Positions 11,321 through 50,808 of a stretch of 64,000 nucleotides of DNA are shown piece by piece. Both the position numbers and the translations under genes were made by a program. Source of the stretch: Escherichia coli (lineage in GTDB: Bacteria; Pseudomonadota; Gammaproteobacteria; Enterobacterales; Enterobacteriaceae); assembly GCF_009931435.1 (NCBI RefSeq), contig NZ_CP043414.1; one strand, given 5' to 3'. The notes beneath the pieces are model-generated. The model saw only the letters and a program-made list of their open reading frames with translations, searched no databases and was not told the DNA's origin. The stretch's first letter is position 1. Each line of letters begins with the position of its first letter.

Positions 11321-11347
11321 ACAAAAAACGCGCCCGAAGGTGCGTTG
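11321..11347. repeat. attL: left copy of 27-bp direct repeat (acaaaaaacgcgcccgaaggTgcgttg)
   Basis: Matches 49447..49473 with one mismatch; integrase gene lies just inside. Confidence 0.75.
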
Positions 11348-13872: not shown

Positions 13873-13883
13873 AGGGCGTTGTG

Positions 13884-14236: not shown

Positions 14237-14329
14237 CGATACAAATAAAACATCAAATTAAATAAGAAAACGTGAAAACCATCCGTATTAACGGAGGTAT
14301 TCGCACACGCAAATAACGGAGATACAAAA

Positions 14330-14740: not shown

Positions 14741-14763
14741 AGTTACTGGACAAAGGGGGCGCA

Positions 14764-15230: not shown

Positions 15231-15526
15231 GCACCATCAACCACCAGAAGCTACGCGAACTGGCATTTGCCCTGCAACGAATGGCAACACCTCAAAAATT
15301 ACTGGCATTTCGCGCAATGCTCTCGCCGTCTGCTGTGCTGGCACTGCTGGATGAGCTGGAGCACGCCAGAACCATGGCTCCAGCCATTCGCCTGACGCTC
15401 CATCATGAAATCGCTGATTTCTGCGCACCACTGGGTTCGCCTGGTGAACCAGAAACGCCGGAAACAATGCAACGAGAGCTACTGCAACGCATCGACAAGG
15501 TTTTTGATTTTTTCCTTAACCAGTAA
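15227..15526 (+). CDS. Hypothetical protein (99 aa)
   Basis: Translationally coupled ORF. Confidence 0.4.
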   Translation: MSTINHQKLRELAFALQRMATPQKLLAFRAMLSPSAVLALLDELEHARTMAPAIRLTLHHEIADFCAPLGSPGEPETPETMQRELLQRIDKVFDFFLNQ

Positions 15527-15537
15527 AGGACCGCGAT

Positions 15538-15750
15538 ATGAACAAAAAGACCTGGTTTCGCGCATACATGTGGGCGCTGGTATGCGTCCTCGTTTCTCTC
15601 ATTCTGTATGTGGGGCTACTTCCCAGAATGATTTCATCAGACAGCTCCTTCCTGGTATTGCTGGGCATTTTTGTCGCCTTGCTGTACCCGGCGGGCGTTG
15701 TTCGCTTTTTCAGTAACTACATCAAAGCAATTATGGAAACCAAACAATGA
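15538..15750 (+). CDS. Small two-TM membrane protein (70 aa)
   Basis: Two hydrophobic helices; ATGA overlap with downstream SPFH gene. Confidence 0.5.
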   Translation: MNKKTWFRAYMWALVCVLVSLILYVGLLPRMISSDSSFLVLLGIFVALLYPAGVVRFFSNYIKAIMETKQ

Positions 15751-16571: not shown

Positions 16572-16940
16572 TTAAACCCGGCCAGTGAAAATCGCTGGCC
16601 GGAGCAGTATCAGGATTTTTTTTAGTATGCCGTTCTCACAAAAAAACCGCTTGCCATGCCGCAATCAGTCAGGTTACATTTCCGCTGCACCTCATAAAAC
16701 GGGTGCCGGGTTTCGCAGCCTGCTGACAACCAAAGCGCACAACCGCGCCAGCGGTTTTTTTGTGCGTACTGTATTGCCACGTCTTTTTCGCACACGAATT
16801 ATGGCGGGGCGTACGGGGCCGACTTCGGTCGGGCCGGGTTCTTTGGTTGCCGGTACTGCGAACCCCGTACGTCTCGCCACCCACAGTTTCGCAGCTCTGG
16901 ATGGTGAGTTTTCAAAACTTACAACCAAAGAGGCTACACC

Positions 16941-17171
16941 ATGGCAAACCGCAAACAGCACCGCGCTATCGCGGAGCGTCGTCACATCCAGACTGAAATC
17001 AACCGCAGACTTTCCCGCGCATTCCGCGTCGCTAAAATCATGCACATCAATATGCTGCATGAGCGTAGCTGCGAACTTTCAAACCTCTACTCATCCGCTG
17101 TTTTCAGTTATCTGGCGGATGATCTGCGCGAGCTTCAGCAGCTCATCCAGCAGCAAAACAAACTCCATTAA
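16941..17171 (+). CDS. Hypothetical small basic protein (76 aa)
   Basis: AAAGAGG RBS. Confidence 0.45.
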   Translation: MANRKQHRAIAERRHIQTEINRRLSRAFRVAKIMHINMLHERSCELSNLYSSAVFSYLADDLRELQQLIQQQNKLH

Positions 17172-17243
17172 TTCCTGTTCCGGGCCTTTCCTGCACCTTG
17201 CGGCGGGAGGCCTTCGCACATCTGTAACAAGAGGATTGCCGCA

Positions 17244-17609
17244 ATGATTCTCGCCAACGACTTTCTTGAATACCTGCTCAACACAGAGCGTGATCTTGCC
17301 GCTCGCGTGCGTGATCGTTATGACATGTACCTGAAATCCCTGCCTGTACCGCAGCTCGCTGACGGAAAGATTGTTATTGATGGTCGCTACATGATTGACA
17401 GCCACGAGGGAAATTACAGGCTTTCCCGCATTGAAGGTGGCACCCCGTCCGTTATTGGCATTTACCAGCGCCCATCCTCTGCAATCGTCGATGTGATTGC
17501 CGACAGCATCCGCATCACACATCGCCATGCCGACACAGAAGACACCGTGCTGGAAATTCAGCGGCTGGCTACAGTCTGCCGCGACACCCTGAATGGCATG
17601 ACGAAGTAA
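17244..17609 (+). CDS. Hypothetical protein (121 aa) upstream of replication gene
   Basis: AGAGGA RBS; position analogous to P2 gene B. Confidence 0.45.
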   Translation: MILANDFLEYLLNTERDLAARVRDRYDMYLKSLPVPQLADGKIVIDGRYMIDSHEGNYRLSRIEGGTPSVIGIYQRPSSAIVDVIADSIRITHRHADTEDTVLEIQRLATVCRDTLNGMTK

Positions 17610-17615
17610 ATCACT

Positions 17616-20438
17616 ATGACGGCAGAGTACATCAGGGACTGGCAACAACCGCGCCACGCAGTGGGGCGTGAAGGAACGGGGATCCCCGCTCCTGAATCCG
17701 CGCTTTCCTCCTGGCTGGATGCCTACCGGGTAGAGAACGAGCGCCGCCAGGAAATGGCTGATGCGGCGTTCTCCGCCACGCCGCTGGGCAACCTGATTAA
17801 TAAAAGCCTGGACGCACAGGAAAAACAGGACAAAACCATCACACTGGCAGGAGACGCCAGAAAACAGGCACGCGGCGCAGTGGATGAAGCCATGACCTCG
17901 CTGCGCCTGCTGCCGTCCTATCTGCGCGATCCGCTTATTCGCCACCTCTCCTTCCTGCGCAAAAAACAGGAAGCCGATCGCCGGAAAGGCAAAAAGAGCT
18001 GGCAGGCGGAACGCTATGCACGCGGAACCCTGCGCAAAATATTCGAACGTCTGGACCGCACCGATCACCGCTGGCTGACACCGGGTTATCGCTCCCTTGC
18101 CGGACGCGAACGCCTGGACGATTTGCTTTACCTGCCGCAGCTCAACAAACACCAGATACAGACGCTGGCCACCATGACGGCGGCGATGTTCAGCAGCACC
18201 TTCGAAAAACTCTGCGATGGCTTTGGCGCGACTGATGGCGAACTGACCATGGATGTAACGCTGAAGGCGTATCAGATGCTGGCCCGCATGGCGTTACACC
18301 TGCACGCCATGCCTCCACATTATGACGCACTGACAACAGACAAAGACCGGAGGAACGAACCGGACACAGAGCTGCTGCCGGGCGCAATCCTTCGCCTGAC
18401 CTGTGCGGAATGGTGGAAACGCAAACTGTGGCTGTTACGTTGCGAGTGGCGGGAAGAACAACTCCGCGCCGCCTGTCTGGTTTCCAGAAAAACATCGCCC
18501 TATCTGAGCCAGGACGCGTTAAGCGAGTTTCGCGCACAGCGCGAGAAAACACGCGATTTCCTGAAAAGTTTCATGCTGGAAAACGAAGACGGGTTCACGA
18601 TTGATCTCGAGACAGTGTATTACGCGGGAGTAAGTAACCCGGTTCACCGTAAGGCAGAAATGATGGCCACCATGAAGGGACTGGAACTTCTGGCCGAAGC
18701 CCGTGGCGACAGAGCGGTGTTTCTGACTGTCACCTGCCCGTCAAAATACCACGCAACAACGGAGAACGGTCATCCGAACCCCAAATGGAACGGGGCCACC
18801 ATGCGCGACTCCAGCGATTACCTGGTTAACACGTTTTTTGCGGCGGTCCGCAAAAAACTGAACCGCGACGGCCTGCGCTGGTATGGCATCCGCACGGTGG
18901 AGCCTCACCATGACGGCACCGTGCACTGGCATATGATGGTCTTTGCTCATCCGGAAGAAATCGACAGCATCGTGGCCATCACCCGCGATATTGCCATTCA
19001 GGAAGACCGCCACGAGCTGGGCAATGATATTACTCCGCGCTTTAAAGTGGAGTATGTCGACGGCTCAAAAGGCACACCAACCAGCTATATCGCGACCTAC
19101 ATCGGGAAAAACCTGGACAGCCGCGCCGTGGATGGCATCGACCCGAAAACGGGCAAACCACGCGTTGACCACGAAACCGGAAAGTCAATGGCCGAGAGCG
19201 TGGAACGCGCCATCGGCTGGGCGCGCCTTCACCGTGTCCGCCAGTTCCAGTTCTTTGGTATCCCCTCCCGTCAGGTGTGGCGTGAACTGCGTCGCCTTGC
19301 CAGCCAGATGGCACGCAACCCGGAAGGCCCGCAACAGCTGAAGGATGACGCAATGGATGCGGTACTCGCTGCCGCTGATGCCGGATGTTTTGCCACCTAC
19401 ATAGAGAAACAGGGCGGCGTTCTTGTTCCACGCAAAGACTACCTGATTCGCACCGCCTACGACCTCGCAGATGAGCTGAACGATTACGGCGAACAGAGCG
19501 TACAGATTTACGGGATCTGGTCGCCACTCATCGGGGAATCCTCCCGTGTGTGCACGCATCCGGATAACTGGAAGCTGGTAAGACGTAAACCGGAAACGGA
19601 AGACAGCGCCCGCGAAAATGGTTTTGACCTTCAGGGCGGCCCTGCCGCCCCTTGGACTCGTGGCAATAACTGTCCCCGTGTACAGGAAACGGACAACAAC
19701 GGGACAGAACAGCCGGAAGAACGGCCAGCACCGTGGCCGCAGCTTCCTGACAGCGTTGACGTGAATGAATGGATGCGCTCACTGAAACGGCACGAACGCC
19801 GGGCGCTGATGCGTTCGCTGCGTGACAAACAGGCAAAAAACAGCAGTGATGAAATGCAGAACTGGACACAGAGCCGCAAACAGCCACGGCCTTTGCCTGA
19901 TAACCACGAGTTACTCGCTAAAGAATGGCGGGAGTCTGCTGAATCTCTCGGCCTGCATATTGGTGAACAGCAGATGCAGCACCTGTTACGGGGCGGCAGT
20001 CTGTACGTTGACGGCAGCATCATTGCACCGCAGGGATTTGAAATTGTACGCAAACCGGATACCCGCCCGGACAGCCGAATCACGCAGCTCTGGCAGCGCC
20101 TGAGCCGTAATCACGGCGTAAGCAGCACGGGGATCCGCCATAACCCGGTCGCCAGCTATCTGGAACAGCTGGGGGCATCAGACCCCGAAGCCGCCGCACG
20201 CCTGGCATCCACACTTCAGCAGGACCAGAACACCATGAAAACCCCCGTTACCGTGCTTTCTGACATGCTGCGCGCCATCCGTGACGCAGAGCACGCACAG
20301 AGAATCAGTGAAACAACTGAACGCGCCCGCCGCAAAGCAGACCTGCTGCGGGGTGGCCTGACCAGTGGAAACAAAAAACAGACAAAAACAGGATTCACAA
20401 ATCCCGTAAATGAGCAAAAAACGCGCCGTGATATATGA
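17616..20438 (+). CDS. Rolling-circle replication initiator (HUH endonuclease, P2 gpA / phiX174 gpA family), 940 aa
   Basis: HUH motif in VHWHMMVFAHP and catalytic Tyr motif YIATYIGKNLD; position after the early operon. Confidence 0.8.
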   Translation: MTAEYIRDWQQPRHAVGREGTGIPAPESALSSWLDAYRVENERRQEMADAAFSATPLGNLINKSLDAQEKQDKTITLAGDARKQARGAVDEAMTSLRLLPSYLRDPLIRHLSFLRKKQEADRRKGKKSWQAERYARGTLRKIFERLDRTDHRWLTPGYRSLAGRERLDDLLYLPQLNKHQIQTLATMTAAMFSSTFEKLCDGFGATDGELTMDVTLKAYQMLARMALHLHAMPPHYDALTTDKDRRNEPDTELLPGAILRLTCAEWWKRKLWLLRCEWREEQLRAACLVSRKTSPYLSQDALSEFRAQREKTRDFLKSFMLENEDGFTIDLETVYYAGVSNPVHRKAEMMATMKGLELLAEARGDRAVFLTVTCPSKYHATTENGHPNPKWNGATMRDSSDYLVNTFFAAVRKKLNRDGLRWYGIRTVEPHHDGTVHWHMMVFAHPEEIDSIVAITRDIAIQEDRHELGNDITPRFKVEYVDGSKGTPTSYIATYIGKNLDSRAVDGIDPKTGKPRVDHETGKSMAESVERAIGWARLHRVRQFQFFGIPSRQVWRELRRLASQMARNPEGPQQLKDDAMDAVLAAADAGCFATYIEKQGGVLVPRKDYLIRTAYDLADELNDYGEQSVQIYGIWSPLIGESSRVCTHPDNWKLVRRKPETEDSARENGFDLQGGPAAPWTRGNNCPRVQETDNNGTEQPEERPAPWPQLPDSVDVNEWMRSLKRHERRALMRSLRDKQAKNSSDEMQNWTQSRKQPRPLPDNHELLAKEWRESAESLGLHIGEQQMQHLLRGGSLYVDGSIIAPQGFEIVRKPDTRPDSRITQLWQRLSRNHGVSSTGIRHNPVASYLEQLGASDPEAAARLASTLQQDQNTMKTPVTVLSDMLRAIRDAEHAQRISETTERARRKADLLRGGLTSGNKKQTKTGFTNPVNEQKTRRDI

Positions 20439-20486
20439 AGCGCGCACAAAACAGGCGAAAACGGGATTTAAAAATCCTGTAACCGA
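20385..20486. repeat. Two copies of a ~24-bp imperfect palindrome spanning the replication-gene stop and parM upstream region
   Basis: aaaacaGGATTcacaaATCCCgtaa (20385..20410) and aaaacgGGATTtaaaaATCCTgtaa (20457..20486); possible ParR operator or parC. Confidence 0.5.
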
Positions 20487-20514
20487 TTAATTAATCAACA
20501 TAAGGAAAAGCGAC

Positions 20515-21474
20515 ATGAAAATTTGTATCGACGACGGATCCACCAACATCAAGCTGGCATGGACTGAGAACGGCGAACGCCGCAACGCCATCAGCCCGAA
20601 CAGCTTCAAGTCAGAATGGTCTGCGCCGTTCGGTGGCACGCAGCCCGCGAACTACATGCTTGATGGCGTGCGCTATGGTTTTGATCCGGTCAGCGATCGC
20701 TTTGTCCAGACGACCGACACGCAATACCAGTACAGCGATGTGAATGTCATTGCCATTCATCATGCGCTGGTCAAATCAGGCATCACGCCACAGGAGGTGG
20801 ATGTGGTTGTCACCCTGCCACTGAGCGAGTATTTCGACACAAACGCACAGCCGGACATGGCCAACATCAACCGCAAAAAAGCGAACGTTATGCGCCCGGT
20901 GGAGTACCAGAACGGCGAGGCATTCACTATCCGTAACGTGCGGGTTATGCCTGAATCCATTCCGGCTGGCTTTAAAGCACTGGCTGACATGAGTCCGTTT
21001 GAATCCCTGCTGATTGTGGATTTGGGCGGAACCACGCTGGATGTGGCAAAGGTTCAGGGGCAACTGGCAGGTATCAGCCAGGTGTTTTGCGATCCACACG
21101 TAGGCGTTTCCCTGATGGCCGATGCCGTACTGTCGGTAATGGCCACTAACGGTATGCGCACCAGTCACCACATCGCCAATACCATTATCGAACATCGCCA
21201 CGATGAAGCCTGGCTGCGCCAGCACATCCACAATAACGCACATTACGCCAGCCTGATGGCTGTTATTCGTGAAAAGGAAGAAACACTGAAACAACGCGTG
21301 ATCCGCGCGCTGGCGGGTTTTTCGGGTTACGGGCGGGTGATGGTTGTAGGTGGAGGGGCAGAGATTGTGGCACCCGCTATCCGCGAAGCCTGCGGAGTTA
21401 ATGCGACTTTCATCGCGGACGGGGTGCCACAGTTTGCTCTGGTTAATGGGCTGTACGCAATGGACAAGGAGTAA
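20515..21474 (+). CDS. parM: Actin-like segregation ATPase ParM/StbA
   Basis: N-terminal IDDGSTNIKLAW and overall similarity to plasmid R1 ParM as recalled. Confidence 0.85.
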   Translation: MKICIDDGSTNIKLAWTENGERRNAISPNSFKSEWSAPFGGTQPANYMLDGVRYGFDPVSDRFVQTTDTQYQYSDVNVIAIHHALVKSGITPQEVDVVVTLPLSEYFDTNAQPDMANINRKKANVMRPVEYQNGEAFTIRNVRVMPESIPAGFKALADMSPFESLLIVDLGGTTLDVAKVQGQLAGISQVFCDPHVGVSLMADAVLSVMATNGMRTSHHIANTIIEHRHDEAWLRQHIHNNAHYASLMAVIREKEETLKQRVIRALAGFSGYGRVMVVGGGAEIVAPAIREACGVNATFIADGVPQFALVNGLYAMDKE

Positions 21475-21478
21475 ATCA

Positions 21479-21793
21479 ATGACGACACCAACCAGACGGA
21501 TAAGTTTCTATCTGAAGCCCGCCGTCGTCAAGAGCGAACGGGAGGCGTGCAGTTACCTCGACAGCCTGCCAGCCTCCGAACGCAGCCGCGCACAACGCGC
21601 GGCTTTTCTGGCCGGACTGGCTCTTATAAAACGCACCCCCGCGTTGGCGTATTCGCTGGCAGAATGGTCAGAAGACGAAATACGGATGCCACCGCTACCA
21701 GTACAGCCTGAAAAACCGGCGCAACCAGCAGCAGACAGCGCCCCCCATATGCAGCAGGTGAAAAAGAATATTCAGGCGTTTTTCCCGAAGTGA
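21479..21793 (+). CDS. parR: ParR/StbB-like centromere-binding protein (104 aa)
   Basis: Immediately downstream of parM; AGGAG RBS; N-terminal RRISFYLKP resembles R1 ParR. Confidence 0.65.
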   Translation: MTTPTRRISFYLKPAVVKSEREACSYLDSLPASERSRAQRAAFLAGLALIKRTPALAYSLAEWSEDEIRMPPLPVQPEKPAQPAADSAPHMQQVKKNIQAFFPK

Positions 21794-21807
21794 AAACAGG
21801 AGTAACT

Positions 21808-22095
21808 ATGTCCACCATTACCAAAGAATGGTTACAACGTAAAATCACAGAGTTTAAATCGTGGCGCGAAGACATCCCGTTCGGTCTTGATGAAGACGAT
21901 CACAATATGTTAATCGCACTGGAAATCGCACTTGCATCACTGGAAGCAGAGCCAGTGGCATGGATGCACGCAAATAATCCTATTGGAATACCGGCGATAA
22001 CAAGAAGTAAAGATGTTGCAGACAGCTGGCGCTCTAAGGGATGGAATGTATTGCCTCTTTATTCACTGACCCGCTCCATCAATTTATGCCATTAA
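21808..22095 (+). CDS. Hypothetical protein (95 aa)
   Basis: ORF starting MSTITKEWLQRK. Confidence 0.4.
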   Translation: MSTITKEWLQRKITEFKSWREDIPFGLDEDDHNMLIALEIALASLEAEPVAWMHANNPIGIPAITRSKDVADSWRSKGWNVLPLYSLTRSINLCH

Positions 22096-22106
22096 TGGAA
22101 GTAATC

Positions 22107-22466
22107 ATGATGAAAGATAATTCCGGAAGCCAGCGTGCATCAGTTGCAGTTATGGTAATGATTAAATTTGTGAAACAGTACACCGGAAAGCCAATCTCGC
22201 TCCGGCAATTAAGCAAAGAAACCGTTTCACTGTCATATCTGGAGCAAATATTCAGATATTTACGGGAAAGTAGCCTGGTAAAAGCCACACGCGGCCCGGG
22301 TGGTGGATATATCCCGACAAAAGAAAATTACAGTGTTGGTGATATTGTCCGGGCAATGAAATGTTCCGGATTATATACACAGCACGTTATTCTGGCTGCA
22401 CTGGATAATATTTCTTTAACCAGCCTGCAGGAAGACACAAATTATCAGTTGTCTGCCATTGAATAA
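22107..22466 (+). CDS. Rrf2-family-like transcriptional regulator (short, 119 aa)
   Basis: LSYLEQIFRYLRESSLVKATRGPGGGY matches the Rrf2/IscR HTH signature. Confidence 0.55.
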   Translation: MMKDNSGSQRASVAVMVMIKFVKQYTGKPISLRQLSKETVSLSYLEQIFRYLRESSLVKATRGPGGGYIPTKENYSVGDIVRAMKCSGLYTQHVILAALDNISLTSLQEDTNYQLSAIE

Positions 22467-22534
22467 GAAAACCCGGAACGGGTGCGCAAATTCTTTGTGC
22501 GCCCGTTCCGGGTTGGACAAGCGAAGCGCGTCAG

Positions 22535-22792
22535 CTATCCGGCCTGCAACAACTCCAGAGCCATTTGTTTTTCTTCCGGACGCATCCGCTCAATCAACAG
22601 CTTTAACACACCATTCTCCAGCCCGCTGGGCACCAGTGTGTGCGAGTAGGTCAGATTCATCACCCAGGTATGTCCGCACTCGAGACGGGTGCAACGGTAA
22701 TACACATCAGCAAACTGATCGGTTTTCCAGGCTGTTTTCTCAATCACTGCATGTGCACCGCAGCAATGACATCGCGCTTTCTGTCTGCGCAT
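22535..22792 (-). CDS. Ogr/Delta-family zinc-finger late-gene activator (start at internal Met)
   Basis: CxCC...YYRC...CGH pattern similar to P2 Ogr; adjacent to the late operon. Confidence 0.65.
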   Translation of the reverse strand: MRRQKARCHCCGAHAVIEKTAWKTDQFADVYYRCTRLECGHTWVMNLTYSHTLVPSGLENGVLKLLIERMRPEEKQMALELLQAG

Positions 22793-22857
22793 TTTCCACC
22801 TCCCGGAACAGCGTTTTACTGCCACCGATTTTACCCGCTCTTTCCCCATACCGCACA

Positions 22858-23892
22858 TCACTCCATGGGTTCATCAAAATCAAGAATAAATTTCACCTCC
22901 CCCAGTCGTCTGATATCCGGGTCGCTGTTGATCCCCTCCATAATCAGGCGGCGCATCGGGATAACCTCATCCCTGTAATATGCCTCGCGGGATTTCAGTG
23001 GGTCACCAAGCCCGGCCGTATTTGCGGGAATGATGCCGGCAAGCCCGGGTGGAAAACGGTGCGCAACGAGCTGATCCTGGGCACTGATAGTTTTTATATT
23101 CAGGAACTCATCTTTTGTACCTGAATCTCCGATAGGGATCACCTTAACGCCTTCTTTGTCTCCGCCAGGTATATTGATAAACATGGATTTAAAATTGCCC
23201 GCCCCTTTTGACGCCTCTATCTTTTTACGGAATTCCGCCTCGAGCTCGGGATCCATGTCCGGGTCAGTGGAATACAGGATATAACCAAGATGTGCGCCGT
23301 TCTTGTAATACTTGCGGCGAAAGCGGGTGGCATCCACATTCAGCATGGCAGATTCCATCCCGTGAATATAATCCGGGACACCGTAAACCTGCTGTTGCGG
23401 GTCATAAATGGCCACGAACACTACTTCGCCTGGCGGGTAAACGAGATCTTCCAGTGCCGCCTGCACAATCACCGTGCCACCCTCGTTGTTACGCCGCAGG
23501 TACAGAGAAGGTAACGTATGCAGGCGCACCACTCGACCGAAGCCATTGCGCACTTTAAGCAACCCCATATCCCCGAATATCAGCAGATTGGTTACTGCTG
23601 CCGCCATGGCGGCGTGTGTCATACCACCACCCCCCCGAAAACCCTGCATGATCATATTGACGCGCGCACGCAATACCGCGCCGTGATACGGTGCGATATT
23701 GGACAACATGGCGAGATCCATGCGCTCAATGGGCGGCGTGTACCAGCCGTTATAGCCATCCCAGAGCGAGCCGTAATAACAGCCCCATGCAGCGACCGGT
23801 TCCGGGTCACCAAATTCAATAAAAGTCATTTTGCTGGCTGTTTTTTTTGCCACGCCATCGTGTAACACGGGGTATTTTTTCTTTTTACTCAT
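22858..23892 (-). CDS. Portal protein (P2 gpQ-like, 344 aa)
   Basis: Size and position next to terminase large subunit, divergent from scaffold/capsid. Confidence 0.75.
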   Translation of the reverse strand: MSKKKKYPVLHDGVAKKTASKMTFIEFGDPEPVAAWGCYYGSLWDGYNGWYTPPIERMDLAMLSNIAPYHGAVLRARVNMIMQGFRGGGGMTHAAMAAAVTNLLIFGDMGLLKVRNGFGRVVRLHTLPSLYLRRNNEGGTVIVQAALEDLVYPPGEVVFVAIYDPQQQVYGVPDYIHGMESAMLNVDATRFRRKYYKNGAHLGYILYSTDPDMDPELEAEFRKKIEASKGAGNFKSMFINIPGGDKEGVKVIPIGDSGTKDEFLNIKTISAQDQLVAHRFPPGLAGIIPANTAGLGDPLKSREAYYRDEVIPMRRLIMEGINSDPDIRRLGEVKFILDFDEPME

Positions 23893-43040: not shown

Positions 43041-43587
43041 CGGGGAAGCCATTCTGCTGCGTAACATCACCGTCAGCGCCACCATGCAACTACCGGACAA
43101 AGATATGTCCGGACAGTCAACCAGCACCACGAGCGCCCAGCAGGGAAACAAGGCTAAAGAGCTGCGCGTGTCGGGGGTTATTGATTTTAACGATGAAGCT
43201 ATTCTGACCCGTATTTTTCAGCTTGCGGAGGCAACAGAAAGCAACGGTGCTAAAAAAACATATCGCATTGCTAACGCTACCGCGAAGGCAATCAATATGC
43301 GACAGGGGGTGTTTTCTGGTGGCATTGATGCCACGGAACAACAGGGAAAAATGCACTGGCAGATCACCTTTACTCTCAGGGAAAAATTAAGCGTGCCAGA
43401 GAAAGCATCCGCACGCAGCGGTTCGCAGAAAACCATCGCCAGACAGCAGACCCAGAATGGCAGCGAACAGGTACCAGACAAAGGCATGAATACGCAAAGT
43501 TCGTTCTGGAAAAAAATCAATGATGCCGTTGGCTCTGGTCTGGATGCTGTTGGCATCGGGAGCGTGAAAGAGGAAGGGAAAACATGA
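43012..43587 (+). CDS. Hypothetical tail/baseplate-associated protein (191 aa)
   Basis: AAGGGA RBS; coupled to downstream spike gene. Confidence 0.5.
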   Translation: MTQMIVLALDGEAILLRNITVSATMQLPDKDMSGQSTSTTSAQQGNKAKELRVSGVIDFNDEAILTRIFQLAEATESNGAKKTYRIANATAKAINMRQGVFSGGIDATEQQGKMHWQITFTLREKLSVPEKASARSGSQKTIARQQTQNGSEQVPDKGMNTQSSFWKKINDAVGSGLDAVGIGSVKEEGKT

Positions 43588-45281
43588 AATTGATACAACG
43601 CTGCATGATTAATGGCGAACGGGTGGAAATTGCCGATATAAGCCTTGTTCTTACCCTGAATGCTGCCGGTCGTGGCTTCATTTCTGTTAACAATCTGTCA
43701 CCCGAACACAGCCTTGCCGGCGCAATGGTACAAATTGATCTCGGCCGTGACGGTGAAGCATGGCGCTATTTCTCCGGCTACATTGAGCGCGATCAACCTG
43801 CTGAAAATGGCTCACGTCGCCTTTTTATTCGTGAAGCGGCTGCTGTGCTGGATTTTGATTTCCCTTGCTCCATGCAACACCCGACGTTGCGGGGGGTACT
43901 CGATAATCTGGGGCGACAAAGCGGTATCGTTTTTATCACTCCGGATGCGGATTATGCCAGTATACCAACTCCCTACATCACCCACAGCGGCAGCGGAGCA
44001 CAACTGCTCAGCCAACTGGGGCGAGCATTCAGTATCAGCGATTACGTCTGGCACCCTATGCCGGACGGTTCTGTATTTGTGGGAAGCGCAGCTGATTCAC
44101 GATTTGCCAGTATTACAATGCCGGATATTCCGCAACAGTACACACTCGGGCAAAGCGGCGGAAACAGCATCGACATCATGTTTATGGAAACTGTGCGACC
44201 GGGCGTGAACCTACCGGCCGGGCGCATTACCCGTGTAGCCCTCAACAACGAGAAAATGACCCTGACATGGGAGCGCCTTACCGCCACGGGTACCCCTGTT
44301 TCCAAATCACCATTACGCAGACAAATGGAAACACAGTTCCCAGAACTGGCCAGCGGTACGCTACATACCCGGCTGGCGCGCGTCATTGCGCCAACGGAGC
44401 CCACCACCCTGGGCGACGTGGCCGACAGTTTCCGCCCACGCTACGCCGTCGATGTGCAGTTGCTTGATGAGAACGGCAACGATAAAAGCGACACGCCCGT
44501 TTACCCGGCAGTACCGCTCCCCGTCCCCATGGCTGGCAGTGAGGCGGGATGTTTTGCCTACCCACCGGCAGGCACCATCGTGGAAATATCCAACATTGAA
44601 GGACGTCCGGACAAACCCGTTATCAGGCAAATCTTACCCGCTGGCCATAACCTGCCTGATGTAAAGCCCGGCGAACAGCTGCAGCAACAGCGCGCAGAAG
44701 TGTTTCAGCGCGTCACGACTGACGGAAGCTGGCACAGAGAAACCGATCAGCAAATCAGGGAGCATTCAGCCAGACGAACCATTAACAGCGATCAGGAAGA
44801 ACGCACAACAACAACCAGAACAACAACAGTACAGGCAAACGACATAACCAGCGTTCTGGGAACCAGCAAGCTGATGACAGGCCAGACAGAACACATTACT
44901 ACTGGTCATTATGCGATCGCAGCCGGTGAGCATATCCAGATGGTAGCGCAGGATTTGCTGACTAAACTCAAAGGGGCGACATCCACGATTGAGCGCGACC
45001 TTACTGAAAACGTGGGAGGCCGCAGAACATGCCGGGCGGACGGTGGTCTGGAGTTTACAGCCCCGACAGTATTTATTGGTCGCGGTGGCTCACGGGAAAA
45101 ATCCGGACTTAATCTGCTGACGTTGTTGATTGATATTCTGGATCTGGTTCAGTTGCTGGCCACACACACTGCAAACCACACCCACAGCAACACCGGCGCA
45201 CCAACAAACAACAGCGAACTTGCCGCAGACGCCAAACAGGCTACGAGCCTGCGCGAAAAATACGGTGACCTTATCGCCTGA
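43584..45281 (+). CDS. Baseplate central spike protein (gpV-like C-terminal domain)
   Basis: C-terminal THTANHTHSNTGAPT resembles the His-rich tip motif of P2 gpV as recalled; 565 aa. Confidence 0.55.
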   Translation: MKLIQRCMINGERVEIADISLVLTLNAAGRGFISVNNLSPEHSLAGAMVQIDLGRDGEAWRYFSGYIERDQPAENGSRRLFIREAAAVLDFDFPCSMQHPTLRGVLDNLGRQSGIVFITPDADYASIPTPYITHSGSGAQLLSQLGRAFSISDYVWHPMPDGSVFVGSAADSRFASITMPDIPQQYTLGQSGGNSIDIMFMETVRPGVNLPAGRITRVALNNEKMTLTWERLTATGTPVSKSPLRRQMETQFPELASGTLHTRLARVIAPTEPTTLGDVADSFRPRYAVDVQLLDENGNDKSDTPVYPAVPLPVPMAGSEAGCFAYPPAGTIVEISNIEGRPDKPVIRQILPAGHNLPDVKPGEQLQQQRAEVFQRVTTDGSWHRETDQQIREHSARRTINSDQEERTTTTRTTTVQANDITSVLGTSKLMTGQTEHITTGHYAIAAGEHIQMVAQDLLTKLKGATSTIERDLTENVGGRRTCRADGGLEFTAPTVFIGRGGSREKSGLNLLTLLIDILDLVQLLATHTANHTHSNTGAPTNNSELAADAKQATSLREKYGDLIA

Positions 45282-45880
45282 TCACCGGGCATACCCCCCC
45301 ATAAACGCCCATCACGCAACGCACGGCTCCGGTCGTGCGTTTTCATATCTGCCACCTGATTAATGCGTTCTGCGTGCCATTCTGGCGCTGTATGCGCACA
45401 CCGCGTAAACGGTGTGACGTAAAGCGTGAGGTGACGTAAACCGCGCTACCCCCTCCAACCCGCGGGTTTCGTGTCGAAACAGTTTTTCAGTTTTCTGCCG
45501 TGCAAAAATGACCGCCAGCCCGCGCAGCAACTGAGGGAAAAGCGAAGATCTGAAATTTCACGCTTTGAAATTTTTTGCAGTTTTCAAAGTGGTTTTTACG
45601 ATCGCACAAATGGCCGGAGCAATAAAACCGCATGATATTAAAAGAGTTTTCATACTTTACGCGAGACAAAAAAACGATCACGAAAGGATCGCATCAAACA
45701 GCCATCAAACAAAGAAGGCAGACACGGCGCGGCCTGCACAAAATTAAGCTCCAAAATAAAACTGAAAAAAAGGATCGCAACAAGAAGAAAAGCGCGTAAA
45801 ACGATCGCTGCTGATGTGGCGTTTCTTTATACAAGCTGCTATTTGCGATATGCTGAACACATCAACCTGTGGAGTGCATT

Positions 45881-46507
45881 ATGAAACGAAAATCAAAGTC
45901 TGCTGCCATTGCTGCTATTACTACAGCTCTGACAGCATCACTGGCTCCGGTGCCAGCTAAAAGCACGATACTACCAACAACAGTTATTGAATCCGCGACA
46001 CACGCCAGAGTGGTTTCAATGCTTACATTTGAGCATCATGATGGTCAGGTGTTTCTGCCTCTCGAAGAAGCTATTGAATATATCAACGGGCTGAATGACA
46101 ACATGCGCGCCGCGCTCAATGCAGTCATTGAAGAACGACAGAACAGAGGCAAGGGAGCACTGTTTACTGACAAAACCGCAAAAATCATAAAAATATGCGA
46201 AGAGTCAATTAAGCAGCACACCCGTGTTAAAGAGGCTGTCAAAATTGTAATGGATCCGGATAACCTGGCAAAAATGTATCCGGATAGCCTGGAGCAAAGA
46301 ATCGCCTATCGCAATAAACTGGTTCGTTTTGGTCGGGCAATTGCGCAGGGAGAGTTTATCGCTCGTGATGCCATCAACACCATCAAACGAAGCACCGCAC
46401 CAGACAAAACAACCAGCCTGGGCAATACGCTGTCTGACGGAAATGTGAAAGCAATGATTATTGCCGAGCATAAAAACATGGGACTCCCGGCACCGGAGTT
46501 TTCCTGA
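45881..46507 (+). CDS. Hypothetical protein (208 aa) with signal-peptide-like N-terminus, coupled to the YafO-like gene
   Basis: GGAG RBS before MKRKSK; N-region/hydrophobic stretch MKRKSKSAAIAAITTALTASLAPVPA; TGATG overlap with next gene. Confidence 0.6.
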   Translation: MKRKSKSAAIAAITTALTASLAPVPAKSTILPTTVIESATHARVVSMLTFEHHDGQVFLPLEEAIEYINGLNDNMRAALNAVIEERQNRGKGALFTDKTAKIIKICEESIKQHTRVKEAVKIVMDPDNLAKMYPDSLEQRIAYRNKLVRFGRAIAQGEFIARDAINTIKRSTAPDKTTSLGNTLSDGNVKAMIIAEHKNMGLPAPEFS

Positions 46508-46887
46508 TGGCAAGCAAAGTAAGCATTCATAAAGATGTTGAATACCAGGACATTGCAAAAGTTTACGGAAAGGCTCTGGAAAACTGGTTAAATACCGGTG
46601 TTCTCCCTGACAGATTCGGCAATGAAGGGCAGTGGGAAGATAACGCAAGATTATGTGGTTCGTTTGTATATAAATTACACATAAGACTACCGTCAGAACC
46701 ACCATGGAAGAAAAGCAAAGCCCAAATAGACAGAACTTCAAATATCTATCTGGTTTATACAAGGCACTGGATGGATTATGACAATATACAAATCATCAGC
46801 ATCATGGCCCCAGATGCTCACGAAAAAGCCAAAACTTCTTTCATGGCTGAACTGGAAAGACGGGCTGAAGAATTCCAGAACTCATAA
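46507..46887 (+). CDS. YafO-family toxin-like protein (126 aa)
   Basis: Blocks GVLPDRFGNEG, HIRL, YLVYTR and C-terminal ISIMAPDAHEKAK...AEEF resemble E. coli YafO as I recall it. Confidence 0.55.
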   Translation: MASKVSIHKDVEYQDIAKVYGKALENWLNTGVLPDRFGNEGQWEDNARLCGSFVYKLHIRLPSEPPWKKSKAQIDRTSNIYLVYTRHWMDYDNIQIISIMAPDAHEKAKTSFMAELERRAEEFQNS

Positions 46888-46907
46888 ATTGCCTGATTTT
46901 CTCTCAG

Positions 46908-46942
46908 AAACCCGCAGCGTAAAAACTGTGGGTTTTCTTTTT
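46908..46942 (+). terminator. Rho-independent terminator after the YafO-like operon
   Basis: Hairpin aaacccgcag...ctgtgggttt followed by T-run. Confidence 0.65.
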
Positions 46943-47178
46943 GCTACCCTGATACGTGAGGGTAGCACTCAAAGTGAGGCAATATGTAGGCAACCTATTT
47001 AATACGTAAAAATTAATGCATTAAATGGATATTTACTAGCATGGGTACTGGCTTAAAATATCACAACCCTGTTTTATAACGTACTGAATTTATTAGGTGT
47101 GACGGTTTTCCAATGGGGCTTCCGACATTACGTTCAGCTGATGCTTTTCTTATGTAACGAGAAGACATATATTGGTAA

Positions 47179-47234
47179 GCGATGAAGCGATGAAGCGATG
47201 AAGCGATGAAGCGATGAAGCGATGAAGCGATGTA
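47179..47234. repeat. Octanucleotide tandem repeat (GCGATGAA) x6 plus one degenerate unit, flanked by ATGTAACG
   Basis: Directly visible; about 95 bp upstream of the ATPase start codon. Confidence 0.95.
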
Positions 47235-47251
47235 ACGTCTGTTTGGTTATA

Positions 47252-47296
47252 AACTTCACACTAATAATTTCTAAATGAAATTATTAGTGTGAAGTT
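47252..47296. promoter_or_regulatory. 20-bp perfect inverted repeat (aacttcacactaataatttc / gaaattattagtgtgaagtt, 5-nt spacer): candidate operator or 5'-UTR hairpin
   Basis: Perfect palindrome ending 34 bp upstream of the ATPase ATG; RBS AAGGAA follows. Confidence 0.6.
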
Positions 47297-47329
47297 GATG
47301 TTTATTGTGATTATAACTAAGGAATTAAA

Positions 47330-48799
47330 ATGAAATTATCTCCAGCAGAATTGAAGTTAGAAAGGGGTAAGGTTCAAGATAATAAATTCAATCAATATGT
47401 TAAACGTATCACATTAAAAAATGTCAGAGGGTTTGATGAGGAAATTGTGGAGTTTAAAACACCAGTTACAGCTCTTATCGGGACTAATGGTGGAGGGAAG
47501 TCGACTATATTAGGTGCTGTAGCTCTCGCTTATAAAAATGTTAAGCCAAGCAAGTTTTTCCCTAAATCATTTTATGGGGATGATTCAATGAGTGATTGGG
47601 AAATTGGATTCGAATTGATTGACAAGCCTATTTCAAAAGATAAAAATATTAACAGGACTGCAAAATTTAAACAGATGAAATGGCGCAGAGATAATTTCCC
47701 AGAGCGAAATGTTGTATATGTAGAAATACAAAGAACTGTTCCTGCAGGCGAACTAACTAAGTTTAATAAATTTTTATCTGGCGATGCTAAACAATTTGAA
47801 GAAAAAAATCTCAACCCTGAGACAATAAAATATTGCTCTGCCGTTTTAGATAAAAAGATAGAAGATTACAGATGTATAATAAATAAGCACGATCCATCTT
47901 CAAGAATGTTTGTAGGTAAGGCAATTAATGGTTCTGGTTATTCTCAGTTCCATTTTGGTGCAGGTGAAGCATCAATAATAGATACTATTGATAGAATAGA
48001 GACTGCTGCTGATAATTCTCTTGTTTTAATTGAAGAAATTGAAAATGGACTGCATCCTGTTGCAGTGCGGTTGTTTGTTAACTATTTGACAAATGTAGCA
48101 AAGAGGAAAAAGCTGCAAATAATATTTACAACACATTCGCAGGATGCAGTAAACGAGCTAGAGCCAGAAGCTGTTTGGGCTTCTATTAACAAAAAAGTAT
48201 GGAATGGTAAACTAAGTATTGAAAGTTTACGCGCTATAACGGGACAGAAGATAAATTCGAAAGTTATATATGTTGAAGATTCTTTTGCAAAAGAGTGGGT
48301 TGAAAATGCGATGGATCGATATATTCCAGAACTAGCCTCAACAATAAAAGTCTACACGGCAGGTGGTTACCCCAGCGTGGTTAAAGTAAGTCAATATCAT
48401 AATGAGAACCCTACTATAAATTATCCATCAATCGCATTAGTTGATGGGGATATTAAAGGTAGACCCGGAACTAAAGATCTGCCTGATAATGCAATGTTCA
48501 TCGGGGATGATTATCCTGACGCTACGGTTTTTCATTATATTGCAAATAACATAGAAGAAAATGCCTCAGTTTTGAGGCAAAGATGTTTGTTAACAAGATT
48601 TGACGCTGAAAAGATTAAATCGGAAGTTGAGAGTGTGATGCATTCTGCATGTGATCACCATGTTTATTTTACTAGATTAAGTGATAAATTAGATTTTGCC
48701 TCAGAACTATTCATTCGAGCTGGTATGATAGATTTATTTAATGAGAAAAATCCAGAATTTTGGTCCCCAATTATGGACTTCATTAAAAAAGGTCTATAG
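47330..48799 (+). CDS. OLD-family-like ABC ATPase fused to Toprim/DUF4435-like domain (489 aa); candidate antiphage defence protein
   Basis: Walker A GTNGGGKST, Walker B LVLIEEIE, H-loop TTHS; C-terminal YVEDS (Glu) and ALVDGD (DxD); AT-rich gene. Confidence 0.65.
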   Translation: MKLSPAELKLERGKVQDNKFNQYVKRITLKNVRGFDEEIVEFKTPVTALIGTNGGGKSTILGAVALAYKNVKPSKFFPKSFYGDDSMSDWEIGFELIDKPISKDKNINRTAKFKQMKWRRDNFPERNVVYVEIQRTVPAGELTKFNKFLSGDAKQFEEKNLNPETIKYCSAVLDKKIEDYRCIINKHDPSSRMFVGKAINGSGYSQFHFGAGEASIIDTIDRIETAADNSLVLIEEIENGLHPVAVRLFVNYLTNVAKRKKLQIIFTTHSQDAVNELEPEAVWASINKKVWNGKLSIESLRAITGQKINSKVIYVEDSFAKEWVENAMDRYIPELASTIKVYTAGGYPSVVKVSQYHNENPTINYPSIALVDGDIKGRPGTKDLPDNAMFIGDDYPDATVFHYIANNIEENASVLRQRCLLTRFDAEKIKSEVESVMHSACDHHVYFTRLSDKLDFASELFIRAGMIDLFNEKNPEFWSPIMDFIKKGL

Positions 48800-48865
48800 T
48801 AATAATGCAAAAATATAATATTTAGTTTGCGATTTATATTTTTCATAATGAATTGTTGAGAAAAT

Positions 48866-48901
48866 AAGAGAGCATCGAAAATTGAGGCTCTCTTATTTTT
48901 A
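48866..48901 (+). terminator. Rho-independent terminator after the ATPase gene
   Basis: Hairpin aagagagc...gctctctt followed by T-run. Confidence 0.7.
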
Positions 48902-48959
48902 TGAGATATCTCTAATGTATTAATCGTTTTATTTTGGTGCTACCACCACTGATGCTAAC

Positions 48960-49346
48960 TTGTCGATCAGACATTCGCACTATTCAATATCTTTTAGGCT
49001 CCGCAATGAAAACGCCCCCGAAGGAACAATCCCCCGTCAATCGGTTGCCAAAGGCCATTTAGGTAAATCGCCTTCGAGGTCGTTCGATGGCTGCATGACG
49101 TTCCCGGTTATCCCGTCAAAGAAAATGCACTCGACCGGAAAACCAGAAGAACTAATGGCGGAGTTGGTCAGGACTGCGAATAGTGGCGGAACAGTCCTTG
49201 ATCCTTTTATGGGGCCAGGGACAACGGGTGTGGCTGCACTGAAAGCAGGGCGAAAATTTATTGGTATAGAGACCAGTGATCATTATTTTGAAGTAGCAGC
49301 ACAGCGACTTCGGGGGACTATTACCACAACCATTTCGACTACATAA
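48960..49346 (+). pseudogene. 3' fragment of a beta-class DNA methyltransferase gene (N6-adenine or N4-cytosine), N-terminally truncated
   Basis: HSTGKPEELMAEL and VLDPFMGPGTTGVAALKAGRKFIGIE (SAM-binding FxGxG) present; no catalytic DPPY region upstream. Confidence 0.6.
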
Positions 49347-49350
49347 GACA

Positions 49351-49378
49351 AAGCCCGCATTTTTGCGGGCTTGTATAT
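49351..49378 (+). terminator. Terminator hairpin after the methyltransferase remnant
   Basis: aagcccgca tttt tgcgggctt stem-loop. Confidence 0.6.
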
Positions 49379-49446
49379 CATTAGTGATGTGGACAGTTTG
49401 TGGATGTTTACAAGAAATAAGCTAATAGAAACAATTTGTTATCTTT

Positions 49447-49473
49447 ACAAAAAACGCGCCCGAAGGCGCGTTG
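49447..49473. repeat. attR: right copy of the 27-bp direct repeat; also the raiA terminator hairpin
   Basis: acaaaaaacgcgcccgaaggcgcgttg; perfect hairpin acgcgcc/ggcgcgt plus T-run on the raiA strand. Confidence 0.75.
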
Positions 49474-49495: not shown

Positions 49496-49891
<396 letters not shown>

Positions 49892-50028: not shown

Positions 50029-50808
50029 CTAAATCGCTTCAGTTTCACAACTAACAGAATAAAAAAACGGCAGCTCAAGGCTGTAATGCCAGTCAGTTAA
50101 GCAACTGACTGGCTCTTTTTCGGGGCTGTGGGGTATTTCCAGGGCCTCTCCTTTACCACTCTCGGGAAGGCCCTTTCCCTTCTTGTCGGTAATTTCACTG
50201 GCTGTCCCATACTTGCAAGATCGCGCATCAGCTCCGGTATACGTCCCGGTGAAGCGCATGGCGTCCGTCATCGACGTCAGCAGATGGCTGGTCAGTTCCA
50301 TCTGGCAGACCATTTTGACCTGCGGGTAGAGCGCCGGGTTCCCGGCATGTGTCTGGCGGGGGAAGGCTGCATCGTTCTCTGGTGTATCCGGTGTGCGCCA
50401 GAACACACCATCGATGGCCAGCAGGGTCAGGCTGCACCAGTGCGGATGCAGCGTGGCGTTATGCCAGAGCTGCGCTGTTTTCGTGAACACGCGGCGGACA
50501 GCCTCACTTCCCAGGCGCTGGCGGGCCTGAATAACGGCACTGGGGGCAACGAAGGGGCGATTGCCCGGCAGCATGATGTCCAGGCGATTCACAATCTGGT
50601 GAAGAGGTTCTTTACGCTCAAGCGCCATGCCAACAATACACCAGACCATCATTTCGAGGGGAAGACGGCGCTTGCGTAGCGTTACAGTACCTGATTCGGC
50701 AAGGCAACGAGAGATGAGTTCGGGGTCGAGGTAATCCCCCAGAAAAGTCAGTGGGTTACGCAGAGAATCGTAACGGGATACCAAATCAAGGGCCTGTCCA
50801 ATGAGCAT
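50029..50808 (-). pseudogene. Truncated/frameshifted IS4 transposase (InsG N-terminal ~200 aa fused to out-of-frame tail)
   Basis: N-terminal sequence matches IS4 InsG as recalled, then diverges after HLLTSMTDAMRF. Confidence 0.75.

What the first reader, a model, noticed from the sequence alone, without database searches (positions are those of the whole stretch)
45282..49446. Right-end prophage cargo island between the spike gene and attR
The ~4.2 kb between the last structural gene and attR contains no virion genes. It holds a ~590-bp non-coding leader with short repeated motifs, the YafO-like pair, a ~430-bp structured AT-rich spacer, the ATPase-Toprim gene and a methyltransferase remnant. 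The position corresponds to where P2-type phages carry accessory genes next to att, and the composition shift suggests modular replacement. The elements may act as one composite defence locus.
Basis: inference. Interest (0 to 1): 0.6.

Follow-up and report, generated by a model that had tools for sequence, protein, structure and literature searches.

The report
Swappable cargo region at prophage end
The 4.2 kb between the last tail gene and the right attachment site of this E. coli prophage is a real swap-in/swap-out cargo region. It holds a toxin gene pair, a known single-gene anti-phage nuclease and a broken methylase gene, which are separate cassettes rather than one combined system.

Summary
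45282-49446 runs from the stop codon of the last tail gene to the base before a 20-bp att core (11321-11340 and 49447-49466). The att core overlaps the raiA terminator hairpin.

Sister prophages show cargo turnover at fixed flanks. They usually carry hok/gef, with or without com and an intact DNA methyltransferase.

In the window, a 208-aa protein plus a YafO-family (RelE-fold) toxin fill the hok slot. A low-GC cassette encoding an HEC-04-type ABC-ATPase-Toprim nuclease, a published anti-phage family, abuts the methyltransferase gene, of which only the last 99 codons remain.

The two cassettes occur apart more often than together: 13 and 10 genomes against 6 of 5426. Each is followed by a predicted terminator. 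This gives no support for a single composite defence locus.

The first 495 bp of the "leader" is conserved phage backbone, not cargo.

Three points remain open:
- The toxin's partner has a signal-peptide-like N-terminus and no known family. Databases mislabel it "SufA".
- An 8-bp repeat upstream of the nuclease gene varies from 7 to 13 units between strains.
- A 260-bp non-coding block is unusually conserved.

Verdict: a new member of a known kind, of modest interest.

The parts
11321..11340 (.). attL core, the 20-bp direct repeat
   Evidence: It is the longest exact repeat between the two prophage ends. The integrase gene lies next to it at 11434-12456 (-).
43584..45281 (+). Last structural gene (baseplate hub/spike, 565 aa). 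It forms the left fixed flank.
   Evidence: phrog_2258 baseplate protein, 9e-232, with a weak VgrG match. It is 92-100% identical in sister prophages.
45282..45776 (.). Conserved non-coding backbone ('leader'). It holds a terminator-like hairpin at about 45319-45343 and a highly conserved block at 45331-45590.
   Evidence: It aligns up to 45776 with L002, L012, L013, L014 and L017, and homology then stops. The block is 96.5-98.5% identical even where the spike gene's 3' part is only 90-93%. No ORF family or Rfam match was found. The hairpin appears in the minimum-energy fold.
45777..45880 (+). Upstream region of the YafO cassette, with a GGAG ribosome-binding site at 45871-45874.
   Evidence: The cassette's left boundary is 45777-45781 in every context examined. 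No strong sigma-70 consensus was found. The ribosome-binding site was read from the sequence.
45881..46507 (+). 208-aa partner protein of unknown family, the putative antitoxin. Its N-terminus looks like a signal peptide.
   Evidence: - No Pfam, NCBIfam, PHROG or significant PADLOC match.
- The family is small: 32 representatives among 1.84 billion proteins.
- A PF13957 gene follows it in all seven full-length homologue contexts examined.
- The AF2 model is a helical bundle (pLDDT 76) with only generic fold matches.
46507..46887 (+). YafO-family toxin (126 aa), a RelE/HigB-fold mRNA endonuclease.
46908..46969 (+). Shared 62-bp linker with an intrinsic terminator (stem 46907-46936, then a T-run).
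   Evidence: dG -15.8 kcal/mol, z -3.3 (scan). The same element follows hok in L002, L012 and L013.
47177..47232 (.). (AAGCGATG)x7 tandem repeat whose copy number varies between strains.
   Evidence: TRF score 112. Perfect units number 7, 9, 10, 8, 8, 9, 13, 9 and 8 in nine otherwise 98-99.5% identical loci.
47249..47299 (.). Palindrome with a 20-bp perfect stem, 31 nt upstream of the nuclease start. It contains a promoter-like TTCACA-18-AATTAT on each strand.
   Evidence: dG -32.4 kcal/mol, z -8.9. It is invariant in all nine loci.
47330..48799 (+). HEC-04-type ABC-ATPase-Toprim nuclease (489 aa), a single-gene anti-phage system.
   Evidence: PADLOC PDLC04149 HEC-04, 6e-204, covering 5-488 of 494. 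K57, E235/E236, H269, E316, D372 and D374 are invariant in 18 homologues. These match the residues mutated in the published protein.
48861..48899 (+). Terminator hairpin after the nuclease gene.
   Evidence: Inverted repeat I6. Fold dG -21.4 kcal/mol, z -4.5, followed by a U-run.
49023..49050 (.). 28-bp junction element, identical to sequence found just 3' of hok in other prophages.
   Evidence: 96% match to L004, L013 and L014 directly downstream of hok.
49047..49346 (+). 3' remnant (99 codons) of a com-associated DNA methyltransferase gene. It is a pseudogene.
   Evidence: It aligns with residues 170-259 of the intact 268-aa L002 protein at 93%. The AdoMet motif FMGPGTTG is kept, but the DPPY motif and the com gene are absent.
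49351..49372 (.). Terminator-like hairpin after the methyltransferase remnant.
   Evidence: dG -17.6 kcal/mol, z -4.7.
49447..49466 (.). attR core. It overlaps the raiA terminator hairpin.
   Evidence: Direct repeat. The terminator-like hairpin at 49472-49453 (-) overlaps it. raiA lies at 49496-49837 (-).

Best explanation
The interval is the variable accessory region at the right end of a hybrid P2-like prophage integrated at the raiA terminator. It is a mosaic of independent cassettes joined at short shared linkers.

1. **Backbone (45282-45776).** Conserved non-coding sequence that includes a terminator-like hairpin downstream of the late genes.
2. **Toxin cassette.** A two-gene cassette sits exactly where sister prophages carry the hok/sok-type killer gene. 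It encodes a 208-aa partner and, translationally coupled to it, a YafO-family RelE-fold RNase. Inferred role: an addiction or abortive-infection module. The partner would keep the RNase inactive until the prophage is lost or a phage infects.
3. **Nuclease cassette.** A low-GC single-gene cassette encodes an HEC-04-type ABC-ATPase-Toprim nuclease. Inferred role: expressed from its own palindromic promoter in the lysogen, it senses superinfecting phage through the ATPase and cuts nucleic acid with the Toprim domain. The published family member needs both activities for defence.
4. **Methylase remnant.** The nuclease cassette abuts a methylase gene that has lost com and its first 169 codons. The phage has apparently lost a DNA-modification gene at the point where the defence gene now sits.

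Shown here: the anatomy, breakpoints, family assignments, intact catalytic residues and independent distribution. Inferred: expression in the lysogen, anti-phage activity of this allele, and toxin neutralisation by the partner.
For: - **Fixed flanks, variable content.** This holds in 11 other right-end arrangements examined, spanning two phage lineages and three integration sites, with precise shared breakpoints.
- **Independent distribution.** Of 5426 complete E. coli genomes, 6 carry both cassettes, 10 carry only the nuclease cassette and 13 carry only the YafO pair.
- **Separate transcription signals.** A predicted terminator follows each unit.
- **Nuclease assignment.** HEC-04 HMM 6e-204 over the full length, with conserved Walker A, Walker B and Toprim E/DxD residues. 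Published work shows defence that Walker A and Toprim mutations abolish.
- **Toxin assignment.** PF13957 hit and a RelE/HigB-like predicted fold.
- **Conserved pairing.** The partner-toxin pair persists down to about 25% identity. It recurs in P2-like prophage variable regions in other genera.
- **Single origin of the nuclease-methylase junction.** The same junction occurs in every nuclease-bearing locus examined.
- **Block exchange.** The nuclease end is contiguous, through attP, with an int/early block shared at 97-98% with canonical P2-like prophages. The late genes share no DNA similarity.
Against: - No expression or phenotype data are available.
- The scan found no strong promoter for the YafO cassette.
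- The partner has no antitoxin-type or DNA-binding domain, and its N-terminus looks like a Sec signal peptide. That does not fit a cytoplasmic antitoxin well.
- The toxin falls far below NCBI's cut-off for K-12 YafO (42.7 against 153 bits).
- The identity between this nuclease and the experimentally tested HEC-04 protein is unknown.
- All six genomes with both cassettes may descend from one prophage, so their co-occurrence says little in either direction.
Confidence: 0.72

Rival explanations
1. One composite defence locus. The YafO pair, the spacer elements and the ATPase-Toprim nuclease would work together, for example with the nuclease sensing infection and the RNase executing.
For: The cassettes are adjacent and on the same strand. 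They are co-inherited in six genomes. Defence systems often cluster.
Against: Each cassette occurs more often without the other (13 and 10 genomes against 6). Their breakpoints and GC content differ. A terminator and a 360-bp spacer with its own promoter-like palindrome lie between them. HEC-04 is active as a single gene in published tests.
Confidence: 0.05
2. The YafO cassette is not a classical toxin-antitoxin pair. The 208-aa protein would be exported or membrane-anchored. The pair would then act differently, for example as a membrane-linked trigger for the RNase or as an unrelated lysogenic-conversion function.
For: The N-terminus has a basic stretch, about 15 hydrophobic residues and then VPA|xS. 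This pattern is kept even in members about 25% identical, while the hydrophobic core sequence varies. There is no antitoxin or DNA-binding domain and no informative fold match.
Against: The gene order, 1-nt overlap and strict pairing fit antitoxin-toxin organisation. AF2 packs the N-terminal segment against the core with pLDDT near 88. No signal-peptide predictor could be run.
Confidence: 0.18
3. Decaying remnant. The interval would be leftover DNA with no function under selection.
For: It contains a clear pseudogene, the methyltransferase remnant. The full combination is rare.
Against: All three other ORFs are full length, and the nuclease keeps its invariant catalytic residues. The proteins are identical or nearly identical across strains from different hosts and continents. 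The cassettes recur at the same kind of site in other genera.
Confidence: 0.05

Closest known systems
Defence/accessory hotspots of P2-like phages (Rousset et al. 2022, PMC9122126; bioRxiv 10.64898/2026.02.27.708500)
   Same: Fixed core flanks with rapidly exchanged cargo that includes known defence systems. Cassettes are swapped between phage lineages.
   Different: The classic hotspot lies between gpA and the portal gene and holds old/tin. This one lies between the last late gene and attR. The 2026 preprint lists additional hotspots, including one 'downstream of GpL', but does not resolve this position in the text read.
HEC-04 (PADLOC PDLC04149; Payne et al., bioRxiv 10.1101/2024.01.29.577857) and plasmid R64 IbfA (PMC12111858)
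   Same: A single polypeptide with an N-terminal ABC-type ATPase and a C-terminal Toprim domain. The HMM match covers the full length. The Walker A lysine and the Toprim E/DxD residues are conserved.
   Different: It is found here in a prophage end rather than embedded in an Hma system or on an IncI1 plasmid. Plasmid relatives are only about 28% identical over the ATPase part, and they were not verified to be ibfA. Activity of this allele is untested.
OLD-family nucleases (P2 Old), Gabija GajA, PARIS AriA/AriB and retron ATPase-Toprim effectors
   Same: An ABC ATPase is combined with a Toprim nuclease for phage defence.
   Different: Their models match only parts of the ATPase at 50-90 bits, against 676 bits for HEC-04. 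There is no GajB, AriB or retron partner gene nearby.
E. coli K-12 YafN-YafO type II toxin-antitoxin system
   Same: The toxin belongs to Pfam PF13957 and has a RelE-like fold. The partner gene lies upstream and overlaps it.
   Different: The toxin is not an equivalog of K-12 YafO. The partner is a 208-aa helical protein of an uncharacterised family, not a YafN-type antitoxin.
hok/sok (Hok/Gef) type I toxin-antitoxin loci
   Same: They occupy the identical slot in sister prophages and are followed by the same terminator element.
   Different: hok encodes a small membrane toxin; here the toxin is a protein RNase with a protein partner. No hok remnant is present in the window.
Phage Mu com-mom
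   Same: A small Com zinc-finger gene overlaps the start of a DNA-modification gene at the phage right end in sister prophages.
   Different: The enzyme here is a DPPY-type DNA methyltransferase rather than Mom. In the window only its last 99 codons remain.

Membership tests
HEC-04 / IbfA-type ATPase-Toprim defence protein | Single polypeptide with a full-length match to the family profile (ABC ATPase plus C-terminal Toprim) | tested here: met
   PDLC04149, 6e-204, residues 2-488 aligned to profile positions 5-488 of 494.
HEC-04 / IbfA-type ATPase-Toprim defence protein | Walker A lysine and the Toprim metal-binding E and DxD residues, which defence requires in the published protein (K62, E319, D375, D377) | tested here: met
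   K57, E316, D372 and D374 are invariant in 18 homologues. The E-to-D spacing of 56 residues is the same as published.
HEC-04 / IbfA-type ATPase-Toprim defence protein | Reduces plaquing of phages when expressed | not testable with these tools
   Known only from the literature for other alleles.
PARIS (AriA + AriB, or the fused form) | DUF4435-type Toprim partner or domain together with an AriA-type ATPase | tested here: not met
   AriA models match only the ATPase segment at 89 bits. Pfam finds no DUF4435.
Gabija | GajA nuclease with an adjacent GajB helicase gene | tested here: not met
   GajA models give partial matches of 59 bits or less. There is no helicase gene in the island.
Class 1 OLD nuclease (P2 Old) | Full-length similarity to Old | tested here: not met
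   The Old model PDLC02358 scores 52 bits over two short stretches. The best solved OLD structure matches only the Walker regions.
YafO toxin family (PF13957, RelE/ParE superfamily) | Match to the family profile and a RelE-like fold | tested here: met
YafN-YafO system of E. coli K-12 | Toxin is equivalent to K-12 YafO | tested here: not met
   NF007377 scores 42.7 bits against a cut-off of 153.
YafN-YafO system of E. coli K-12 | Upstream YafN-type antitoxin | tested here: not met
   The upstream protein has no Pfam, NCBIfam or PHROG family and no informative fold match.
Type II toxin-antitoxin pair (generic) | Conserved two-gene unit with coupled genes | tested here: met
   The genes overlap by 1 nt. 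The pair is kept in Morganella-type, Serratia and other contigs down to about 25% identity. One truncated solo partner copy was found.
Type II toxin-antitoxin pair (generic) | Toxin arrests growth and the partner neutralises it | not testable with these tools
   This needs expression experiments.
Phage accessory/defence hotspot | Conserved flanks with different gene content in related elements | tested here: met
   Eleven other right-end arrangements were examined in addition to the window's own. Breakpoints are mapped.
Classic P2 old/tin hotspot | Location between gpA and the portal gene, next to cos | tested here: not met
   The island lies at the opposite end, next to attR. The window's own gpA-portal interval (20515-22858) gave no PADLOC hits.

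The most novel reading that the evidence does not exclude
The 208-aa protein with a signal-peptide-like N-terminus, together with its YafO-fold RNase, is an uncharacterised two-gene phage-exclusion or addiction system. It travels between variable regions of P2-like phages and can replace hok/sok. In it, an exported or membrane-associated partner controls a cytoplasmic RelE-type toxin. Separately, the 8-bp repeat upstream of the nuclease gene (7-13 units in near-identical loci) could act as a slipped-strand switch that tunes expression of a toxic defence gene.
Probability: 0.22. Interest if true: 0.55.

Novelty: new member of a known kind. Interest (0 to 1): 0.3.

Why it matters
- It documents, with base-level breakpoints, a cargo slot between the last late gene and attR of P2-like prophages. 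This slot is distinct from the well-known old/tin site.
- Short shared linkers, a 62-bp terminator and a 28-bp element, mark the cassette junctions.
- A defence gene sits where an intact DNA-modification gene lies in sister prophages.
- A type I killer (hok) has been replaced by a protein RNase pair in the same slot.
- It flags an uncharacterised partner family that public annotation wrongly calls SufA.
- None of this changes current concepts. It adds one concrete, testable candidate system and one candidate expression switch.

Tried and rejected
- **Isolated phages.** There is no DNA match to the island, and only tail-fibre fragments match the late region. The partner protein has no phage match. 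The toxin has four distant ones.
- **Rfam scan of the island.** Only two sub-threshold hits, MicC at 31.8 bits against a threshold of 90 and a Brucella sRNA. Both are treated as chance.
- **Small ORFs in the leader and spacer.** No PHROG family.
- **hok, com, TM2 or ogr remnants in the island.** None found.
- **Fold searches for the partner.** Only generic helical bundles and its own mislabelled family came up.
- **'SufA' label.** Rejected, because no NCBIfam or Pfam model supports it. I first misread it as a different integration site near sufA. The loci are all at raiA.
- **PARIS, Gabija, OLD and retron-effector assignments for the nuclease.** Rejected in favour of HEC-04.
- **GATC clustering in the leader.** Six sites fall in one 300-bp window, the densest in the 64-kb sequence. 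Other places reach five, so this is not compelling.
- **K-12 YafO alignment.** No conclusion rests on it.

Full report
**Setting.** The window is E. coli chromosome: ffh through pheA, then a prophage, then raiA-bamD-rluD-yfiH-clpB. A 20-bp direct repeat, ACAAAAAACGCGCCCGAAGG, lies at 11321-11340 and 49447-49466. The right copy overlaps the raiA terminator hairpin.

The prophage has an integrase at 11434-12456 (-) and a P2 gpA-type replication nickase. It also has portal and terminase genes on the minus strand, a P2-family capsid, sheath, tape measure and fibres. Its last structural gene is a 565-aa baseplate hub/spike at 43584-45281. The finding's interval, 45282-49446, therefore runs exactly from that gene's stop codon to the base before attR.

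**What is in the interval.**
- No island ORF matches a virion family.
- 45881-46507 encodes a 208-aa protein with no Pfam, NCBIfam or PHROG family.
- It overlaps by one base the start of a 126-aa protein (46507-46887). That protein matches Pfam YafO_toxin over the whole model (1.4e-27).
- After a terminator hairpin (46907-36) comes a 34%-GC stretch. It holds an (AAGCGATG)x7 array at 47177-47232 and a palindrome with a 20-bp stem within 47249-47299. The palindrome contains a promoter-like TTCACA-18-AATTAT on each strand.
- 47330-48799 encodes a 489-aa protein. It matches the PADLOC HEC-04 profile end to end (6e-204). OLD, GajA, AriA, PtuA and retron-effector profiles match only parts of its ATPase.
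- In an alignment with 17 homologues, the Walker A lysine (K57), Walker B (E235/E236), H269 and the Toprim residues E316, D372 and D374 are invariant.
- Payne et al. showed that HEC-04 is a single-gene anti-phage system. Its defence is lost in Walker A (K62A) and Toprim (E319A/D375A/D377A) mutants, and its over-expression appears toxic.
- A second paper relates the family to IbfA of plasmid R64 and summarises activity against T4 and T5.
- The gene ends with its own terminator at 48861-99.
- 49047-49346 matches residues 170-268 of an intact 268-aa DNA methyltransferase found in sister prophages. The AdoMet motif remains, but the DPPY motif and the upstream com gene are gone.

*Frequencies.* Among 5426 complete E. 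coli genomes:
- Only 6 carry the whole island.
- 10 carry the nuclease cassette plus the methyltransferase remnant without the YafO pair.
- 13 carry the YafO pair without the nuclease.
- An evenly spaced sample of the remaining matches suggests about 20 genomes have both flanks with other cargo, about 18 have the left flank only, and about 110 match only the methyltransferase.

*Sister prophages.* Prophages with the same spike gene and leader sit at raiA, serS and flk. They carry hok/gef alone, hok + DUF4875, hok + com + methyltransferase, or hok + a hypothetical gene + com + methyltransferase.

*Canonical P2-like prophages.* Those with gpD and ogr carry, between ogr and attR, one of these sets:
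- hok-TM2-com-methyltransferase
- hok-nuclease-remnant
- hok-TM2-com-methyltransferase-nuclease-remnant
- a spike-gene fragment followed by the YafO pair

*Breakpoints*:
- Backbone homology ends at 45776.
- The YafO cassette spans 45777/45781 to about 46907.
- A 62-bp terminator element (46908-46969) follows either hok or YafO.
- The nuclease cassette starts at 46969.
- It ends in a 28-bp element (49023-49050) that elsewhere sits just 3' of hok.
- It joins the methyltransferase at 49049/50 in every locus, which points to a single origin for that junction.

**Hybrid phage.** Compared with a canonical P2-like prophage at raiA (L022), the window shares two stretches:
- attL-int-early genes-gpA-ParM (9901-15526 and 16637-21631) at 97%.
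- 46908 to raiA at 98.5%.

Nothing between 21632 and 46907 is similar at the DNA level. In the circular phage genome the nuclease cassette is therefore part of a roughly 13-kb attP/int/early block. Two different morphogenetic lineages share that block. The YafO cassette sits at the junction.

**Independence of the parts.** Four observations argue against one composite system:
- The cassettes have separate distributions.
- Their boundaries differ.
- Their GC content differs: 44% against 34%, with 52% for the phage as a whole.
- A predicted terminator follows each unit.

The best reading is a mosaic accessory region. It holds a toxin-antitoxin-like cassette in the hok slot and a stand-alone defence gene, which lies against the truncated methylase gene.

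**The partner protein.**
- Its family is small, with 39 clusters at 90% identity and 32 representatives among 1.84 billion proteins.
- A PF13957 gene followed it in all seven full-length homologue contexts examined. These include a bare two-gene insert between rne and a DUF496 gene in Morganella-type contigs.
- They also include the gpD-ogr-pair-host junction in Serratia, a 193-aa/564-aa spike-pair-host junction, and a primase-pair-ogr-portal interval.
- A 130-aa gene call near a contig start is also followed by the toxin. One 159-aa relative is solo.
- The N-terminus has basic residues, about 15 hydrophobic residues, then VPA followed by a small residue. This reads like a Sec signal peptide and is kept in members about 25% identical. 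AF2, however, packs it against the helical core.
- No predictor was available, so whether the protein is exported remains open. This is the main uncertainty in calling the pair a classical toxin-antitoxin system.
- RefSeq and UniProt call many members 'SufA'. No profile supports that name.

**Comparison with what is known.**
- Variable defence-rich loci in P2-like phages are established. The classic one lies between gpA and the portal gene.
- A 2026 preprint lists further sites, including one 'downstream of GpL'.
- The slot between the last late gene and attR described here fits that picture, but it is not singled out in the text I could read.
- The nuclease is a member of a published family, and the toxin of a known superfamily.
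- The finding is therefore a new member of a known kind. It has three unexplained details: the partner's N-terminus, the strain-variable 8-bp repeat (7-13 units in nine loci), and a 260-bp leader block that is more conserved than the gene beside it.

Noticed in passing
window 45881-46507; P0003-P0032: Homologues of the 208-aa partner are widely annotated as 'iron-sulfur cluster assembly scaffold protein SufA' in RefSeq and UniProt. No NCBIfam or Pfam model supports this, so it looks like a propagated misannotation.
   Followed up: partly
window 47177-47232 (also L001, L003, L004, L023-L027): The octamer AAGCGATG repeat upstream of the nuclease gene has 7, 9, 10, 8, 8, 9, 13, 9 and 8 perfect units in nine loci that are otherwise 98-99.5% identical. 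The palindrome next to it never changes. This could be a slipped-strand expression switch.
   Followed up: partly
window 45331-45590: This non-coding block is 96.5-98.5% identical in five sister prophages, even where the adjacent spike gene's 3' part drops to 90-93% and the distal leader to 78-89%. It has no ORF family and no Rfam match. It contains GTGACGTAAA(G/C)CG twice and lies at the start of a cluster of six GATC sites.
   Followed up: partly
L005 5745-6000 (NZ_CP061914.1): A canonical P2-like prophage at serS carries a 256-bp fragment of the window-type spike gene (equal to window 44501-44756). The fragment is fused directly to the YafO cassette, which shows the cassette moved between phage lineages.
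   Followed up: partly
window 15527-16636: This stretch is an insertion relative to the otherwise 97%-identical early region of prophage L022. Its 274-aa ORF (15747-16571) weakly resembles the SPFH proteins HflC/HflK and has no PADLOC hit.
   Followed up: partly
window 20515-23124: The classic gpA-portal hotspot of this prophage holds a ParM-like gene, an Rrf2-family regulator-like ORF (22041-22466) and several small ORFs. None matched a PADLOC model. An ogr-like zinc-finger ORF lies at about 22673-22774 (-), next to the portal gene rather than at the right end.
   Followed up: partly
window 50029-50808: A truncated IS4-family transposase ORF (259 aa, matching the first 154 of 332 profile positions) lies between raiA and bamD. 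Strain LR-62-2 (L015) has an intact IS4 at the same spot, and strain 7_33_46A (L001) has none.
   Followed up: partly
NZ_CP183151.1 33974-34372 (hit H73): The methyltransferase 3' part and att-arm sequence also occur on a 129-kb E. coli plasmid next to a tail-fibre gene. This may be a phage-plasmid or a misassembled prophage.
   Followed up: no
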